Origin: a virus
Taxonomy: Duplodnaviria > Heunggongvirae > Uroviricota > Caudoviricetes
DNA length: 11,611 bases
IMG/VR virus record: IMGVR_UViG_2872185964_000001
Reading direction: 5' to 3' (one strand)
Of this stretch, positions 6,001-11,611 are shown in pieces; the first letter of the stretch is position 1; every line of letters starts with the position of its first letter. Made by a program: the position numbers.

Positions 6001-9000
6001 GGGCGGCAAGGAATAAACAACAAAACGTGAAGTAATATTTCAGCTGGCGAATAATACCCCATAGTAATCACTCTGCGCAACTGCGCGGTCTTTTTCGAAT
6101 TGCGGGCTGTCGTCTCTCTTCTGCCATTGTCCTGTAACTTCCGGACTTCAGCCCGCTCCTCATTTTACTCACAATATTATCCCGGCCGGGAGGATTCATG
6201 GCTTTTAAACACTATGATGTTGTCAGGGCGGCGTCGCCGTCAGATCTTGCGGAAAAGCTGACACATAAACTGAAAGAGGGCTGGCAGCCGTTTGGTAGTC
6301 CGGTGGCCATAACCCCTTATACTCTGATGCAGGCGATTGCAGCAGAAGGTGCAGTAATCAGCGCCACCAGCGACCCGGAGTATTACTTTGTTGTGGTTCT
6401 GGCAGGGCAGTCAAACGGCATGTCGTATGGTGAAGGCCTTCCGCTGCCGGGACATATGACCGTCCGGACCCGCGTATTAAGCAACTGGCGCGTCGCAGTA
6501 CGGTGACACCGGGCGGTGCAGCATGCAAATATAACGACATCATTCCGGCGGACCATTGTCTGCATGATGTGCAGGACATGAGCCGTCTTAACCATCCGAA
6601 AGCGGACCTGTCAAAGGGGCAGTACGGAACCGTGGGGCAGGGGCTGCATATCGCCAAAAAACTGCTGCCGTTTATACCGGCGAATGCGGGCATTCTGCTG
6701 GTTCCATGCTGTCGTGGTGGTTCAGCGTTCACCACCGGAGCTGATGGCACATACAGTGACGCGAGTGGTGCCTCGGAGAATTCAACCCGCTGGGGTGTGG
6801 ACAAGCCGCTGTATAAGGACCTTATCGGTCGAACAAAAGCGGCACTGGAGAAGAACCCGAAAAATGTGCTGTTTGCCGTGGTGTGGATGCAGGGGAATTT
6901 GATTTTGGCGGTACGCCGGCAAATCATGCCGCACAGTTTGGTGCGCTGGTTGATAAATTCCGTGCAGACCTGGCGGATATGGCAGGCCAGTGCGTCGGTG
7001 GCTCTGCTGGCGGTGTTCCCTGGATATGCGGGGACACGACGTATTTCTGGAAGCAGAAGAACGAATCCACGTACCAGACGGTGTACGGCAGCTATAAAAA
7101 TAAAACGGAAAAGAATATCCATTTCGTACCGTTCATGACCGATGAGAACGGGGTGAATGTGCCGACGAACAAACCGGAAGAAGACCCGGACATTCCGGGT
7201 ATCGGTTATTACGGTTCGAAATGGCGTGACAGCTCAGCCACCTGGACGTCACAGGACAGGGCGAGCCATTTCAGTTCATGGGCTCGCCGTGGGATTATTT
7301 CCGACCGTCTGGCAACGGCGATTCTGAGCTGCGCGGGTAAGTCTTCTGCGTTTGTTAATGGTACTGCCGGGGTGGTTGTTCCAGACAGGCCGGTTACCAC
7401 CTCAGAGTCTGTAATTTTTTACGATGCCAAAAAAGCTACAGACAATCAGCTGAAACCTTATGGCTGGGACGGTATGTATGGCAGACGCACACTGGTTGAT
7501 GACAGCGGCAATAAAGCTCTGCGAATTGAGAAAAATAACAGCTCGAAATCCTGGTCAATGTACTGTGAGGTGTACTGGCAATAGCGGACACTACCATTTG
7601 TTCTTTTTTTAAGCAGCCATCTGATGATATTTTTCCCTGAAGGCTGCCGGGGAGATATTCCCCAGACGAGAGTGACGACGCTGACGATTGTAGAAAATCT
7701 CAATGTATTCCCGTATTACTGAGATGGCTTCATCCCGGTTATTAAAACGATAGTGGCTCAGGCTCTCATTTTTCAGCGTTCCCCAGAAGCTTTCCATCGG
7801 AGCGTTGTCGTAACAGTGACCTTTACGCGACATTGATGTTTTCAGACCAGACTGCTCCTGTATGACCCGGTAATCGTATGCGCAGTACTGTGAACCTCGA
7901 TCAGAGTGGTGGATTAGCCCGGCAGGTGGGCGCTGGCTCCTGAGCGCCATAAACAGGGCTTTACCTGTCAGCTCTTTTGTCATGCGCTCTCCCATGGCGT
8001 AGCCGACAATTTCGCACGTATAAACATCTTTGATGCCAGCGAGGTACAACCATCCCTCCTGTGTGGCAACATACGTCAGGTCCGCCACCCAGACCTGATT
8101 TGGTGCTGTAGGAGCGAACGTCTGGTTCAGCAGATTTGGCGCAACTGGCAGATTGTGGTTCGGGTTCGTAGTCGCTCTGAACTTGCGTTTCTGCTTACAG
8201 CGTAGCCTTAGCTCCTTACGAAGACGTGCCAGTCGGTCACGACCAACGATGATGCCATTCTCTGCCAGCTCCGTCTGGAGCCGCCGGGTTCCATATGTTT
8301 CGCGAGTGCGGATATGTGCCACCTTAATCTCCAGTTTTAGCCGCTCATCACTTTGTTTTCTGTCTGAGGGTTCATGCTGTACCCAGTTGTAATAACCGCT
8401 CCTGGATACACCAAATACCTGACACATCGCTTCAATGGGAAATTGTTGTCGCCATTGTTCGATTAACGCGTATTTTTCAGCGACTCCTGTGCAAAATACG
8501 CTGTTGCTTTTTTTAATATATCTCGCTCAAGGCGAGCTTCATTTAACGCCTTACGCAGTTGCAGAATTTCAGATTCCAGTTCAGCCACCGTGCGGGAACC
8601 AGGAGTACCGAGCCCTTTTCTGGCGGCGGTAACCCATTGTCCTAAAGTGCCTTCAGGAAGGGATAATCGGGAAGCGCCTTCACTGATCGAAAGTTGATTT
8701 TCAAGAACCGTTCTGACAGCTTCGGCTTTGAACTCTTTAGAGTAACGTTGGTTTTTTCTGCTCATTATTAGCTCCTTCTGATGCCATTCTATTTCAGGAA
8801 GGAGTGTCCGTTAAACTCAGGCTACCTCACTCCCTGGCGGATTTTTGCAGCGAATACAGCAACACAACCGGACGGGCAACGGCTACGCGCTTCGCGTTCC
8901 GTCCAGGCGGTTACGTGGATGATTTGAGATTCTCCGGCACTCAGTGCCAGAAAACGCCACACAAAGGCCGTTTGTGTGTGTACAAGGTGTGGTATATGAT

Positions 9001-11611
9001 TTACAGCAACCATAACGGCTCCTAGTTTACGTTGTTGGTTAGACGCCCCGTATGTGTTCCCAGCACTGCGGGGCGTTGCTCTTTGTATTTCAACAATCCT
9101 TTCGGTGTGTTTCATGTTATGAGCGCATGAAACACACGTCAAGGCTTTTTGTATTTCTTTTTTTGTGTATACTGAAACACACCGATGATTAGGAGTTTCA
9201 GAAATGGCAACGGCTAACAAAAACGCAAAATCACAACTGACAACTGTCAGAGTCCCACTAGATGTTATGCAAGGGATGGAATCCGTTAAGCTGGACGGTG
9301 AAAGCAATGCCGGATTTATCGTAACCGCCATGCGCGGAGAAATGGCCCGCCGCCAAGCAGAAGGCAGCGGAGAAAATCCCCTTGTGTCGTCACTGGATGC
9401 CCTGGCTAAGGTCGAACAAATCGGCATCAAAGCAGCCGAGGAGATCGGGCAACTCGTCACCGTCGCGCGTGAAGAACTCCAGCGACGCAAGGTCAAAGAG
9501 CATGAATAGCCAATATCAGCGCCATAGTTTGAGGAACGCAGGCGCATTGCTTTACAGGACAGCACCATGAGCGACACAGAATCAACCAAAACACCATCAC
9601 CAACTCGTAAGAGACGACGCAAAAATATAGCGCATGAACATGAATCAGAAAGATTCGCACCTTGTTCGTTTGCTCTTGAGAAATTCCTTAAAGAGCACAG
9701 GAAAAAGCTCTCGTTGCAAACCTTGGAACGAACCAAATCTGACTGATCACATTGCCCACCAGCCGCAAATGTGGCATTGTTGGTGATGCTTTTGTTTTCC
9801 CTTGTTCCCACTGGCGACCCTTTTGCGGTCGCCTTTGTTTTGTCACTGAATGCGGTTACCAAAGTAAAACTCAGGCTGATATTCACGTATCAGCGTTTTT
9901 TCTTCTTCCTCCTGCTCACGCTTTTTGCGCTTACATGCCTGTAGCTCCCTCCCCTTCTCGCTGGCACTTATTTGATATTGCTCTTTACGGCGGGAAAAAT
10001 CCTGTAATGCACCCCACGGGATACCATAAGTCCCCGTTTTTCTGATACCTGGTATCACATTTCTGAATACCCAGTTACTGAAACGATGAGCAAATGTGCC
10101 AGGCGTCGTTGCTTTGCGGCTGCGGGCTATTAGTTTGTAGAAACCTGACTCAGAGATAATTCTCATATTCTGATTTCCTCCTGGGGTGTAAGTTAAATTT
10201 ACTCCCTTTTCATCATCATCAAGCATCTGCAACGCCGTACGCGAATTGGTTAGTTCCAGCGCAGCACAAACATCTTTTGCAACAAACCACGGATCGCCGT
10301 TCAGATACACCACACGAACGTTCACACTATCAAAGCGCAGAACGACGAGATCACGAATATCGCAGAATTTTTTCACTGGACGAGCGTACCCCTTGCCCGT
10401 CACGGCAATATTTTTATTCATCGCGTTTTTACCTTATAGACAAAAAACCCCTCGTGATGAGGGGCATTATTTACTGGTTATTGCTGTTTTGTTTTTCCAG
10501 GTTTCCATCCAGGATGCCACTCACCACGGATCCATGCCTGAACCTCTGAAAGTCGATACCCTGCAGCACGTTCACCGATCTTGATACGTCGCGGGAATTT
10601 ACCTGCCTGCTCCATTTTCCAGCGTGTTGAGTTTGCCAGCGTGGTAAGTGCTATGCACTCTTTTTCACGAATGAACCGATCAATGTCCTTCATTGTGCGC
10701 AAATCGTTTTCATCAACAAGAGAATAAATTGCCATATCACACCACCTCTTTATTAAGCTCGATAACGTTGTTGTTAAATCCTGCTATCGTATTAAGGTAA
10801 TTAACCCACATATTAAGCACCTCAAGTTTTTTCTTTATATGCCTGCTTTTATTGTAAACACCAGCAACCCCTTTCACTTTATGACCTAAAAGAAGTTCGG
10901 TAATGACTCCAACTTATTGATAGTGTTTTATGTTCAGATAATGCCCGATGACTTTGTCATGCAGCTCCACCGATTTTGAGAACGACAGCGACTTCCGTCC
11001 CAGCCGTGCCAGGTGCTGCCTCAGATTCAGGTTATGCCGCTCAATTCGCTGCGTATATCGCTTGCTGATTACGTGCAGCTTTCCCTTCAGGCGGGATTCA
11101 TACAGTGGCCAGCCATCCGTCATCCATATCACCACGTCAAAGGGTGACAGCAAGCTCATAAGACGCCCCAGCGTCGCCATAGTGCGTTCACCGAATACGT
11201 GCGCAACAACCGTCTTCCGGAGCCTGTCATACGCGTAAAACAGCCAGCGCTGGCGCGATTTAGCCCCGACGTATCCCCACTGTTCGTCCATTTCCGCGCA
11301 GACGATGACGTCACTGCCCGGCTGTATGCGCGAGGTTACCGACTGCGGCCTGAGTTTTTTAAGTGACGTAAAATCGTGTTGAGGCTAACGCCCATAATGC
11401 GTGCAGTTGCCCGGCATCCAACGCCATTCATGGCCATATCAATAATTTTCTGGTGCGTACCGGGTTGAGAAGCGGTGTAAGTGAACTGCAGTTGCCATGT
11501 TTTACGGCAGTGAGAGCAGAGATAGCGCTGATGTCCGGCAGTGCTTTTGCCGTTACGCACCACCCCGTCAGTAGCTGAACAGGAGGGACAGCTGATAGAA
11601 ACAGAAGCCAC

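What the first reader, a model, noticed from the sequence alone, without database searches (positions are those of the whole stretch)
8830..10898. Uncharacterised switch-like module between IS600 and IS1: operator repeats, RHH-like ORF, small basic ORF, Bro-N antirepressor, AlpA-family regulator
About 2.1 kb with no obvious link to the upstream prophage late region. It has two convergent transcription units with dedicated terminators (9813-9841; 10442-10464). The plus-strand unit carries a putative RHH protein and a 59-aa basic protein. The minus-strand unit carries an AlpA-family HTH protein followed, after its own terminator, by a Bro-N antirepressor. This resembles an immunity/antirepressor control region (P22 immI logic) or a satellite/PICI regulatory core, but the gene set and operator sequence match nothing I can name. 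Candidate roles: a prophage-induction switch, inter-phage interference, or an abortive-infection module.
Basis: partly seen in the sequence, partly recalled or inferred. Interest (0 to 1): 0.65.

Follow-up and report, generated by a model that had tools for sequence, protein, structure and literature searches.

The report
Decayed control region of a phage satellite
This 2.1-kb stretch is the leftover on/off control region of a small "phage satellite" (a PICI that parasitises lambda-like phages), cut off at both ends by insertion sequences; the element type is known, but it appears to be wired with a small repressor gene lying backwards inside a long P4-like reading frame, which I found described nowhere in the papers I could search.

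Summary
The module is not unnameable. It is 99.9% identical to the int-proximal end of an ~11-kb Gram-negative PICI found in 57 complete E. coli genomes. In strain EC93 that element sits inside, and co-oriented with, a lambdoid portal gene, which is the helper-embedded PICI (HE-PICI) arrangement. IS1 removed most of int. IS600 removed everything downstream of the first replication-operon gene.

- 8822-9013(-) is an Icd/Kil-like gene.
- 10737-10898(-) is the 3' end of int.
- A 354-codon ORF runs antisense through both plus-strand ORFs and ends in the Icd-like gene. This matches the nested eta/kil genes of phage P4.

This long frame is open in all 94 related loci examined, including the promoter region that no plus-strand gene covers.

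The 101-aa protein belongs to the YlcI/YnfO family. Its N-terminal strand covaries with three operator copies that overlap the two divergent promoters, so it is most likely the satellite's repressor.

The 59-aa ORF remains unproven.

Verdict: a known kind of element as a decayed copy, with an apparently undescribed regulatory variant. Moderate interest.

The parts
10737..10898 (-). 3' end (last 53 codons plus stop) of the satellite tyrosine integrase gene, truncated by IS1
   Evidence: Collinear at 99.9% identity with EC93 int (L001 15908..17149, WP_000963723.1). The int stop lies 1 nt before the alpA ATG.
10478..10735 (-). alpA: AlpA-family HTH regulator/excisionase, 85 aa, intact
   Evidence: PF05930, 5e-14. 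100% identical to the EC93 copy. AlpA is the helper-induced activator required for PICI induction (PMC6092414; PMC11773190).
10440..10465 (-). Intrinsic terminator between alpA and bro (GCCCCTCATCACGAGGGGT + TTTTTTG)
   Evidence: -12.7 kcal/mol, z=-3.9. Only about 25 nt separate it from the bro ATG.
9843..10421 (-). bro: Bro-N domain protein, 192 aa ('Bro zone' gene)
   Evidence: PF02498, 4e-20; PHROG 2593, 2e-84. It is present in only some related loci, which fits a mosaic zone.
9813..9841 (+). Intrinsic terminator of the plus-strand (ylcI-like) unit. It lies inside the long minus-strand ORF.
   Evidence: -15.1 kcal/mol, z=-4.7. The T-tract is on the + strand only. It is absent from Bro-less variants such as L002.
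9567..9746 (+). 59-aa basic ORF, status unresolved (possible accessory gene or shadow of the long antisense ORF)
   Evidence: PHROG 21027, 5e-15. 29 homologues, Escherichia only, with in-frame indels and a conserved core ERFAPCxFALEKFLKE. Codon-position signal is weak. AF2 pLDDT is 67. PGAP does not annotate it in EC93.
9204..9509 (+). ylcI/ynfO-family gene: 101-aa putative ribbon-helix-helix repressor with a C-terminal long helix
   Evidence: NF041551, 6.5e-16. 177 homologues across Enterobacterales. Third-position variation is 0.42 against 0.14 and 0.11 at positions 1 and 2. AF2 pLDDT is 79.6 with beta-alpha-alpha plus a long helix. The N-terminal strand covaries with the operators.
9102..9185 (.). 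Divergent promoter/operator region. Operators: O1 9102-9114, O2 9126-9138, O3 9173-9185. Leftward promoter for icd: -35 TTGACG 9142-9137, -10 TAACAT 9119-9114. Rightward promoter for ylcI: -10 TATACT 9169-9174.
   Evidence: The -35 TTGAC, the TAA of the leftward -10 and the TATAnT are conserved across genera, while the operator cores change in step with the protein.
9045..9074 (-). Conserved hairpin in the icd leader (GCCCCG…CGGGGC), about 25 nt upstream of the icd Shine-Dalgarno sequence
   Evidence: -18.4 kcal/mol, z=-2.8. Two of 8 pairs show compensatory changes, in 12 and 6 of 26 sequences. A DNA palindrome bound by a dimeric protein cannot be excluded.
8822..9013 (-). icd/kil-like gene (63 codons here, 65 in intact copies). 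Its last codons and stop are supplied by the IS600 end. It is the first gene of the deleted replication operon.
   Evidence: NF033153, 1e-17. P4 Kil hits the same model at 1.6e-21. It has its own AGGAG RBS 5 nt before the ATG.
8822..9886 (-). Eta-like long ORF (354 codons from GTG 9886; a GTG at 9811 has an SD-like AAGGG). It is antisense to the ylcI-like and 59-aa ORFs, runs through both promoters, and is in frame with icd.
   Evidence: Open in all 94 related loci. In the 171-180-nt promoter region it has 0 stops against 2-8 in the other minus frames. 1741 database protein clusters, named 'Icd-like protein', 263-527 aa.

Best explanation
The module is the surviving early-control region of a Gram-negative phage-inducible chromosomal island (PICI) of the helper-embedded type. 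It comprises the integration zone, the Bro zone and the first gene of the replication operon. IS1 removed most of int. IS600 removed everything after the icd-like gene: the primase, SSB, capsid and TerS genes. The switch therefore no longer controls a mobilisable element.

How it most likely works in intact copies:

(1) Inferred, with comparative support. The 101-aa YlcI/YnfO-family protein is a ribbon-helix-helix-type repressor. It binds three operator copies. O1 and O2 bracket the -10 of the leftward promoter that drives icd/kil and the replication genes. O3 sits at the start of its own rightward promoter. The protein thus keeps the satellite quiescent and autoregulates. This is the protein counterpart of SaPI Stl and of the P4 CI RNA.

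(2) Shown for other PICIs, inferred here. The helper phage switches on alpA, and AlpA activates the island and excision. In helper-embedded copies, helper late transcription should also read straight into int-alpA.

(3) Inferred from conservation and the P4 precedent. Transcripts that come from upstream carry a long eta-like ORF. This ORF is translated across the repressor gene in antisense and across the operators, and it ends in frame in icd. As in P4 eta/kil, continuous translation would protect the read-through transcript from premature termination. Convergent transcription would at the same time shut down repressor synthesis. The state would flip from repressed to induced.

(4) Bro is a variable accessory regulator of unknown target.
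For: Identity as a PICI remnant.
- 99.9% identity over all 2069 nt to copies in E. coli; 57 genomes hold at least 80% of it.
- In EC93 the module is the left end of a ~10.9-kb element with the order int-alpA-bro / ylcI-like / icd-like-4 small ORFs-DUF4222-primase-SSB-capsid-decoration-HTH-TerS. This element splits a lambdoid portal gene and is co-oriented with it.
- That layout matches the Integration/Bro/Replication/Late zones and the B:Phage_portal_2 sites of HE-PICIs (PMC10111431).

Repressor and operators.
- There are three exact 10-mers within 78 bp and none elsewhere.
- They overlap the conserved promoter hexamers.
- At least five N-terminal-strand variants each pair with their own operator core. 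KSQLTTVRVP goes with GAAACACAC in 54 loci, including Xenorhabdus and Photorhabdus. KSKQISIRIP goes with GAATCACA. KSQSLTARIP goes with CTTACA. KSQMTTIRVP goes with GATATACA.
- The protein is under purifying selection, and the AF2 model shows beta-alpha-alpha plus a long helix.

Eta/kil architecture.
- P4 Kil (65 aa) and P4 Eta hit the same Icd-like model as this gene.
- The long frame is open in 94 of 94 loci, at 165-819 codons.
- In the promoter region that lacks plus-strand coding, it has 0 stops in 28 of 37 distinct sequences, against 2-8 in the other minus frames. P(0 stops) is 0.016-0.04 per sequence, and 9 of 10 representatives that are 46-83% identical are open.
- In 29 of the 37 distinct sequences with a detected icd start, the icd-to-ylcI start distance (182, 188, 191, 194, 203 or 299) equals 2 mod 3, so icd is in frame. 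In most of the out-of-frame ones the long ORF stops a few nt before the icd start.
- The ORF start overlaps the stop codon of the upstream gene in L006, L008, L011, L014 and L079.
- Relatives L062, L081 and L075 carry P4-type C4 and isrK RNAs inside the same ORF.
Against: - There are no experimental data for this element.
- Within ylcI itself the open antisense frame is expected by chance at P=0.15-0.7 given the protein sequence. The long ORF shares wobble positions with ylcI, so substitution patterns cannot separate the two frames.
- The long-ORF product is low-complexity and has no Pfam domain outside Icd.
- In the window/EC93 variant the long ORF has no clear coupled start, an intrinsic terminator separates alpA from bro, and a plus-strand terminator lies inside the ORF. 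Read-through would therefore need antitermination.
- The 59-aa ORF is unexplained.
- In this window the controlled operon is deleted, and the remnant is oriented opposite to the neighbouring prophage fragment.
Confidence: 0.75

Rival explanations
1. Phage-triggered growth-arrest (abortive-infection or superinfection-exclusion) module. The Icd/Kil-like protein is a toxin held off by the repressor, and an incoming phage protein derepresses it and stops the cell. This could coexist with the satellite-switch reading.
For: In ECOR61, a phage accessory gene (orf24) triggers growth arrest. [quoted passage not shown] Six genes including a primase were needed. P4 kil is proposed as the lethal effector in a second case (bioRxiv 10.1101/2023.04.06.535777).
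Against: No module protein hits PADLOC. I could not check whether the ECOR61 locus carries the ylcI cassette. In this window the downstream genes required in ECOR61 are deleted. Growth arrest may simply be a side effect of unscheduled satellite induction.
Confidence: 0.25
2. The long antisense ORF is a non-functional shadow of the real plus-strand genes. The region is then just two convergent units.
For: The frame shares third codon positions with ylcI and the 59-aa ORF. YlcI lacks Tyr, so few antisense stops are possible. The product looks like antisense translation, rich in S, C and R. PGAP prefers YlcI plus a short Icd.
Against: The frame is also free of stops where there is no plus-strand gene. 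It stays in frame with icd through indels of 3, 6, 9 and 12 nt. It is translationally coupled to upstream genes in five lineages. It spans 819 codons over a tandem duplication. P4 has the same nested pair.
Confidence: 0.15
3. An immunity/antirepressor region of a complete temperate phage (P22 immI-type Mnt/Arc-Ant logic) left behind by prophage decay.
For: There is an RHH-like protein with a C-terminal helix (Mnt-like shape), a Bro-N 'anti-repressor' PHROG annotation, and a lambdoid prophage fragment next door.
Against: Intact copies are ~11-kb elements with primase, capsid and TerS but no tail or lysis genes, and they carry the AlpA signature (Table 1 of PMC10111431). Bro is not downstream of the RHH-controlled promoter. 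tblastn against 50,697 phage records finds only a 16.5-kb capsid-forming-PICI-like record.
Confidence: 0.04
4. A fragment of a P4-family satellite in the strict sense.
For: It has AlpA/Vis-like, eta/kil-like and D5-type primase genes in P4 order.
Against: No sid, delta, psu or epsilon genes are annotated in the intact copy, which instead carries lambda-type capsid, decoration and TerS genes. No C4 or isrK RNA is found in this variant.
Confidence: 0.04

Closest known systems
Gram-negative PICIs / helper-embedded PICIs (Fillol-Salom et al. 2018, PMC6092414; Tommasini, Mageeney & Williams 2023, PMC10111431)
   Same: int then alpA at the left end, a variable Bro-network zone, then the primase/SSB replication zone, then captured lambda-type late genes. 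About 11 kb. Intact copies sit inside, and co-oriented with, a lambdoid late gene (portal).
   Different: The published description stresses unidirectional genes, AlpA as activator, and 'no clear global repressor'. Here an oppositely oriented YlcI-family repressor gene with its own operators sits inside the Bro-zone ORF. The window copy is an IS-truncated remnant without replication or late zones.
Phage P4 immunity region (vis - eta/kil - CI RNA - epsilon - alpha)
   Same: An AlpA-family gene is followed by a long ORF whose C-terminal ~65 codons form a separately translated Icd/Kil protein expressed from an internal promoter. The long ORF is coupled to the upstream gene. A primase operon lies downstream. 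Some relatives even keep the C4/isrK RNAs inside the ORF.
   Different: This variant has no CI (C4) or seqA (isrK) RNA and no Phage_ASH segment. In their place is an antisense protein-repressor cassette with three operators. There are no sid, delta or psu genes.
SaPI / Gram-positive PICI Stl-Str divergent control region
   Same: A small repressor gene is transcribed divergently from the excision/replication operon, with operators in the short intergenic region. Repressor specificity varies between islands.
   Different: The protein family is unrelated (Stl is HTH). Here int and alpA lie on the operon's strand, not the repressor's. The 'intergenic' region is also coding on the other strand. The inducer is unknown.
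P22 immI (Mnt, Arc, Ant) and P1 immI (c4 RNA, icd, ant)
   Same: RHH repressors with a C-terminal oligomerisation helix (Mnt). An Icd leader gene whose translation licenses downstream expression (P1; stated from own knowledge). Bro/Ant-type proteins nearby.
   Different: Bro is upstream of the repressed promoter, not under its control. There is no arc-ant operon, no sar or c4 RNA, and the context is a satellite rather than a phage.
ECOR61 prophage-encoded PCD/superinfection-exclusion locus (Silas et al., bioRxiv 10.1101/2023.04.06.535777)
   Same: An Icd-like protein with an N-terminal extension is followed by two small ORFs of 186 and 192 nt and a primase. The Icd-like gene is required for phage-triggered growth arrest.
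   Different: The window lacks the downstream genes.

Membership tests
Gram-negative PICI | Integrase followed directly by a co-oriented alpA at one end | tested here: met
   The int 3' end (10737-10898) abuts alpA (10478-10735). Full int is present in EC93.
Gram-negative PICI | Bro-network zone between alpA and the replication genes | tested here: met
   Bro-N gene at 9843-10421, followed by the eta/icd-like ORF.
Gram-negative PICI | Primase-based replication zone and a late zone with few captured head genes; no tail or lysis genes; about 10-15 kb | tested here: not met
   These genes are absent from the window because IS600 deleted them. The 99.9%-identical intact copy in EC93 has all of them. 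The window therefore holds a remnant, not a functional member.
Gram-negative PICI | Helper-phage-dependent induction, packaging and transfer | not testable with these tools
   Needs induction and transduction experiments.
Helper-embedded PICI (HE-PICI) | [quoted passage not shown] | tested here: inconclusive
   This is met for the EC93 copy, where the portal gene is split at L001 5679-6461 and 17346-18179 with everything on the same strand. In the window both junctions are replaced by IS elements, and the remnant is opposite in orientation to the adjacent lambdoid fragment.
P4-type eta/kil nested genes | Kil/Icd-like ORF forming the in-frame C-terminus of a longer ORF that starts after the AlpA-family gene and contains the internal early promoter | tested here: met
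   Actual translation of the long ORF was not tested.
P4-like satellite | sid, delta, psu and epsilon genes; CI (C4) immunity RNA | tested here: not met
   None is annotated in the intact copy. There are no C4 or isrK hits in the window or L001, although both are found in P4 and in L062, L081 and L075.
Ribbon-helix-helix (Arc/MetJ/CopG) repressors | N-terminal beta-strand followed by two helices, dimerising to read DNA repeats with the strand | tested here: inconclusive
   AF2 secondary structure fits, and strand/operator covariation fits. Fold searches are not significant, and there is no PDB sequence match.
P22 immI-type antirepressor control | Antirepressor gene transcribed from the promoter that the RHH repressor(s) control | tested here: not met
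   Bro lies upstream of, and outside, the operator-controlled units. The repressed leftward promoter drives icd.
Known anti-phage defence systems (PADLOC) / type II toxin-antitoxin | Match to a defence-system protein model; co-transcribed toxin-antitoxin pair | tested here: not met
   No PADLOC hit for any of the five proteins. The RHH and Icd-like genes are divergent, not co-transcribed.

The most novel reading that the evidence does not exclude
A large subset of Gram-negative PICIs, including capsid-forming and helper-embedded ones across Enterobacterales, do have a master repressor. It is a YlcI/YnfO-family RHH protein with lineage-specific operator specificities. Its gene lies fully antisense inside a translated eta-like 'anti-polarity' ORF, where it replaces or supplements the P4 CI RNA. 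Induction would then be a contest between convergent transcription and translation from the alpA side and repressor expression from the other side. This would answer the open question of whether Gram-negative PICIs have a global repressor. It would also be a clear case of two functional, fully overlapping antisense genes.
Probability: 0.4. Interest if true: 0.65.

Novelty: new variant of a known kind. Interest (0 to 1): 0.48.

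Why it matters
The window copy itself matters little. It is a dead fragment typical of IS-rich Shigella-like genomes, although its intact alpA, bro and repressor genes could still cross-talk with incoming satellites or phages.

The family-level pattern matters more. The PICI literature states that a global repressor in Gram-negative islands is unclear and that induction works through AlpA activation. 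Covariation between a conserved RHH-like protein and three operators on the replication-operon promoter gives a concrete candidate repressor that is easy to test. It also suggests immunity-type specificity classes among satellites.

The conserved long ORF antisense to it extends the P4 eta/kil principle to PICIs. It also exposes a systematic annotation conflict. The same DNA is called 'YlcI/YnfO plus short Icd' by one pipeline and '300-500-aa Icd-like protein' by others.

Tried and rejected
- Rfam on the whole window at E<=1 found nothing in the module. The RNA-immunity (C4/isrK) idea is therefore rejected for this variant, though it is confirmed in relatives.
- PADLOC gave no hits.
- A PDB sequence search with the YlcI profile returned only chance-level hits.
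- tblastn of the long ORF and of Icd against 50,697 phage records found only 4 and 1 records and did not find P4. Homology to P4 Kil had to be shown through the NCBIfam model instead.
- Synonymous-codon shuffling showed that the open antisense frame inside ylcI is not significant by itself.
- Codon-position and amino-acid-identity tests cannot separate the two strands, because they share wobble positions.
- A terminator-like hairpin inside icd (8958-8978) is not better than shuffles (z=-0.7), so I dropped it.
- The AF2 model of the 59-aa ORF has low confidence (pLDDT 67) and is uninformative.
- The primary P4 eta/kil paper (PMC94026) is not held. I relied on its summary in PMC10111431 and on my own reading of the P4 sequence.
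- One literature search was wasted on unspecific terms.
- I considered a toxin-antitoxin reading of RHH plus Icd and rejected it, because the genes are divergent.

Full report

Yes. The module is bounded exactly as stated. The IS600 terminal repeat ends at 8829 and the IS1 inverted repeat begins at 10899. The ORFs exist and their family assignments hold:
- Bro-N, PF02498, 4e-20, at 9843-10421(-).
- Phage_AlpA, PF05930, 5e-14, at 10478-10735(-).
- YlcI_YnfO_N, NF041551, 6.5e-16, for the 101-aa protein at 9204-9509(+).

Both terminators fold far better than shuffled sequence. The one at 9813-9833 plus T-tract on the + strand gives z=-4.7. The one at 10447-10465 plus T-tract on the - strand gives z=-3.9.

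The 'operator repeats' are three exact copies of TGAAACACAC/GTGTGTTTCA at 9105-9114, 9128-9137 and 9173-9182. The outer pair extends to a perfect 13-nt inverted repeat. There are no other exact copies in the window. Apart from these three sites there are no matches with at most 1 mismatch in 30 kb around an intact copy.

**2.

- The leftmost 184 nt are a gene. [quoted passage not shown] Its last codons are supplied by IS600.
- The rightmost 162 nt are the 3' end of a tyrosine integrase gene whose stop lies one base before the alpA ATG. They are not an alpA promoter region.
- A 354-codon ORF (8822-9886, -) runs antisense through the 59-aa ORF, the 101-aa ORF and the 'intergenic' promoter region, and ends in frame as the Icd-like protein.

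**3. What it is**

Megablast against 5,426 complete E. coli genomes finds the whole 2,069 nt at 99.9% identity. 57 genomes hold at least 80% of it, and 1,387 hold pieces, which shows mosaicism.

In E. coli EC93 the module is the left end of a ~10.9-kb element. Its gene order is int, alpA, bro, (opposite strand) ylcI-like, then icd-like, four small ORFs, DUF4222, primase, SSB, major capsid, head decoration, HTH and TerS. The element splits the portal gene of a lambdoid prophage and is co-oriented with the late genes.

This is the published organisation of Gram-negative PICIs, and specifically of helper-embedded PICIs. Those have Integration, Bro, Replication and Late zones, and their integration sites include B:Phage_portal_2 (PMC10111431).

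Related copies with other integrases sit at chromosomal sites such as tqsA and near roxA. A more distant relative is a 16.5-kb capsid-forming-PICI-like 'phage' record.

The window therefore holds an IS-truncated remnant. alpA, bro, ylcI-like and the long ORF are intact: alpA is 100% identical to the EC93 copy, and the YlcI-like and Bro proteins differ by one residue each. The replication and packaging genes and most of int are gone.

No complete E. coli genome has the IS600 junction. The best database match of the long ORF is a Shigella flexneri protein. The surrounding DNA is a decayed lambdoid prophage next to potC. It carries a lambda-type int, a DNA methylase, three tRNAs, STnc100 and a split NanS-like esterase, with IS1, IS2-like and IS600 insertions. 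The remnant is inverted relative to that fragment, so I cannot tell whether it was once embedded in this prophage.

**4. The repressor and its operators**

The 101-aa protein is a genuine, conserved family. There are 177 hits, 63-98% identical, in Escherichia, Salmonella, Citrobacter, Klebsiella, Enterobacter, Yersinia, Serratia, Edwardsiella, Morganella, Xenorhabdus and Photorhabdus. It is under purifying selection: third-position diversity is 0.42, against 0.14 and 0.11 at positions 1 and 2.

AF2 (pLDDT 79.6) gives a short N-terminal strand region, two helices (19-28, 35-54) and a long C-terminal helix (59-100). This is the shape of Mnt- or TraM-type ribbon-helix-helix proteins. Fold searches are not significant, however, so the fold remains a plausible assignment only.

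The stronger evidence is comparative. I aligned the region between the ylcI and icd starts from 16 diverged loci. Three elements are conserved: a leftward -35 TTGAC, the TAA of the leftward -10, and a rightward TATAnT. The three operator cores between and after them change.

They change in step with residues about 10-17 of the protein:
- KSQLTTVRVP pairs with GAAACACAC in 54 loci, including Xenorhabdus and Photorhabdus, whose flanking DNA has diverged.
- KSKQISIRIP pairs with GAATCACA.
- KSQSLTARIP pairs with CTTACA.
- KSQMTTIRVP pairs with GATATACA.
- KSQIKNVR(I/V)P pairs with further variants.

O1 and O2 bracket the -10 of the leftward promoter (-35 at 9142-9137, -10 at 9119-9114). O3 abuts the -10 of the ylcI promoter (9169-9174).

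I infer that this protein represses the icd/replication promoter and autoregulates. Its function would be analogous to Stl of Gram-positive PICIs. The PICI literature says a global repressor is unclear for Gram-negative islands.

**5. The long ORF and the P4 parallel**

In phage P4 the AlpA-family gene vis (ORF88) is followed by an ORF (8168-8812) that consists of a Phage_ASH segment plus an Icd-like C-terminus. Its last 65 codons are Kil, which hits the Icd-like model at 1.6e-21. The C4 (CI) and isrK (seqA) RNAs lie inside it.

PMC10111431 summarises the P4 mechanism as follows. Kil is translated from the internal constitutive promoter. Full-length Eta is translated only from the upstream late promoter and is coupled to the alpA homologue. 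Eta translation prevents termination.

The PICI loci show the same design.
- The long frame is open in all 94 loci I collected, at 165-819 codons.
- Inside ylcI this is unremarkable. The protein lacks Tyr, and synonymous shuffles give P(0 stops)=0.15-0.7.
- In the 171-180 nt promoter region, which has no plus-strand gene, the frame has 0 stops in 28 of 37 distinct sequences. The other two minus frames have 2-8 stops. P(0 stops) is 0.016-0.04 per sequence, and 9 of 10 representatives that are only 46-83% identical are open.
- In the 400 nt beyond the ylcI stop, the frame has 0-1 stops in most loci, against 7-18 and 3-12 in the other frames.
- Distances between the icd and ylcI starts differ by multiples of three (182, 188, 191, 194, 203). 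Where the frame is broken, the long ORF stops a few bases before the icd start.
- In five separate lineages the long ORF's start overlaps the stop of the upstream gene as ATGA or TGATG.
- One locus has a single 819-codon frame spanning two tandem modules.
- Loci L062, L081 and L075 carry C4 and isrK inside the ORF, downstream of the YlcI-controlled promoter.

Gene callers have produced 1,741 protein clusters of 263-527 aa from this frame, named 'Icd-like protein'. PGAP calls the antisense YlcI gene plus a short Icd instead.

I conclude that both strands are probably functional. The window variant is a P4-type control region in which a protein-repressor cassette occupies the place of the CI RNA.

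**6. Proposed mechanism**

Quiescent state (inferred). YlcI-type repressor bound at O1-O3 silences the icd/replication promoter. The terminators after alpA and after the plus-strand unit insulate the units.

Induction. The helper activates alpA, and AlpA is required for excision and expression. This is shown for EcCICFT073 and EcCIMP1 but not for this element. In embedded copies, helper late transcription is expected to read into int-alpA, as hypothesised in PMC10111431.

Flipping the switch (inferred). Read-through transcripts translate the long ORF across the repressor gene and the operators into icd. This would resist polarity and interfere with convergent repressor transcription.

Other features. 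A conserved hairpin in the icd leader (9045-9074) shows compensatory changes at two pairs. It may add RNA-level or protein-level control. Pseudomonas AlpA is described as an antiterminator (abstract of PMC9998450). If that holds for PICI AlpA, it would explain the terminator between alpA and bro. I did not test this.

Weak points. In the window/EC93 variant the long ORF has no obvious coupled start; the candidates are GTG 9886 and GTG 9811, the latter with an SD-like AAGGG. Two intrinsic terminators would have to be read through. Bro's role is unknown.

**7. The 59-aa ORF**

It has an AGGA upstream, 29 homologues restricted to Escherichia, in-frame indels and a conserved core. Against that, it lies in the wobble-sharing frame of the long ORF, shows weak codon-position asymmetry, is absent from other genera, gives a low-confidence model, and is not annotated by PGAP in EC93. 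I leave it open.

**8. Rivals**

An abortive-infection reading has indirect experimental support. [quoted passage not shown] This may be a consequence of satellite derepression rather than a separate function. The window lacks the downstream genes, and no PADLOC model matches.

The 'shadow ORF', 'P22 immI-like phage region' and 'P4-family member' readings are each contradicted by tested features; see the rival-explanation and membership tables.

**9. Verdict**

The element type is already described, and this copy is a decayed fragment.

In the papers I searched, YlcI/YnfO appears only as a listed PICI gene annotation, and nothing describes the RHH-type repressor with covarying operators or its complete antisense nesting in a conserved eta-like ORF. 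That search covered five queries of an open-access library; a sixth call was rejected before it ran.

I rate it a new variant of a known kind, of moderate interest.

Noticed in passing
window 8822-9886 (-) vs 9204-9509 (+); L001, L014: The same DNA is annotated in two incompatible ways in public records. PGAP calls YlcI/YnfO plus a 65-aa Icd-like protein. Prokka and other pipelines call one 263-527-aa 'Icd-like protein' on the opposite strand (1741 clusters).
   Followed up: yes
L062 2996-3181, L081 3011-3196, L075 2195-2380 (minus strand): Some related satellites carry P4-type C4 (CI) and isrK RNAs inside the long ORF, downstream of the YlcI-controlled promoter. These loci therefore have protein and RNA immunity layers in series.
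   Followed up: partly
L075 1952-4411 (-): One IMG/VR contig has two tandem ylcI/icd modules spanned by a single 819-codon open frame.
   Followed up: no
window 9045-9074 (-): The icd leader contains a conserved hairpin with compensatory changes at two base pairs. It matches no Rfam family. It could be an RNA element or a palindromic protein-binding site.
   Followed up: partly
window 5459-5975: tRNA-Met(cat), tRNA-Arg(tcg) and tRNA-Arg(tct) are followed by the sRNA STnc100 (139 bits). A DNA methylase (4243-5418) lies upstream and a split DUF1737/NanS-like esterase (6198-7584) downstream. This is the Q-downstream region of a lambdoid, Stx-phage-like prophage, apparently without toxin genes.
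   Followed up: partly
window 1-4331: potC is followed by a lambda-type integrase (962-2080, -), then nested IS1 (2352-3133) and IS2-like (3058-4331) insertions. A 140-aa ORF (2049-2471, -) overlapping the int start has no family match.
   Followed up: no
L001 21213-21407 (+): The eponymous ylcI gene of the DLP12-like helper prophage is also oriented against the late operon (nohD and others on the other strand). Antisense placement may be a general habit of this family.
   Followed up: no
L001 13618-13994; literature: The two small ORFs after icd in EC93 (186 and 192 nt) have the same sizes as the two Tn5-suppressor genes next to the Icd-like gene of the ECOR61 phage-triggered cell-death locus. 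That 'prophage system' is probably a PICI of this family.
   Followed up: partly
window 10440-10465 and literature: An intrinsic terminator lies directly between alpA and bro, leaving only about 25 nt before the bro ATG. Pseudomonas AlpA is reported to be an antiterminator, which raises the untested possibility that PICI AlpA acts by antitermination.
   Followed up: no
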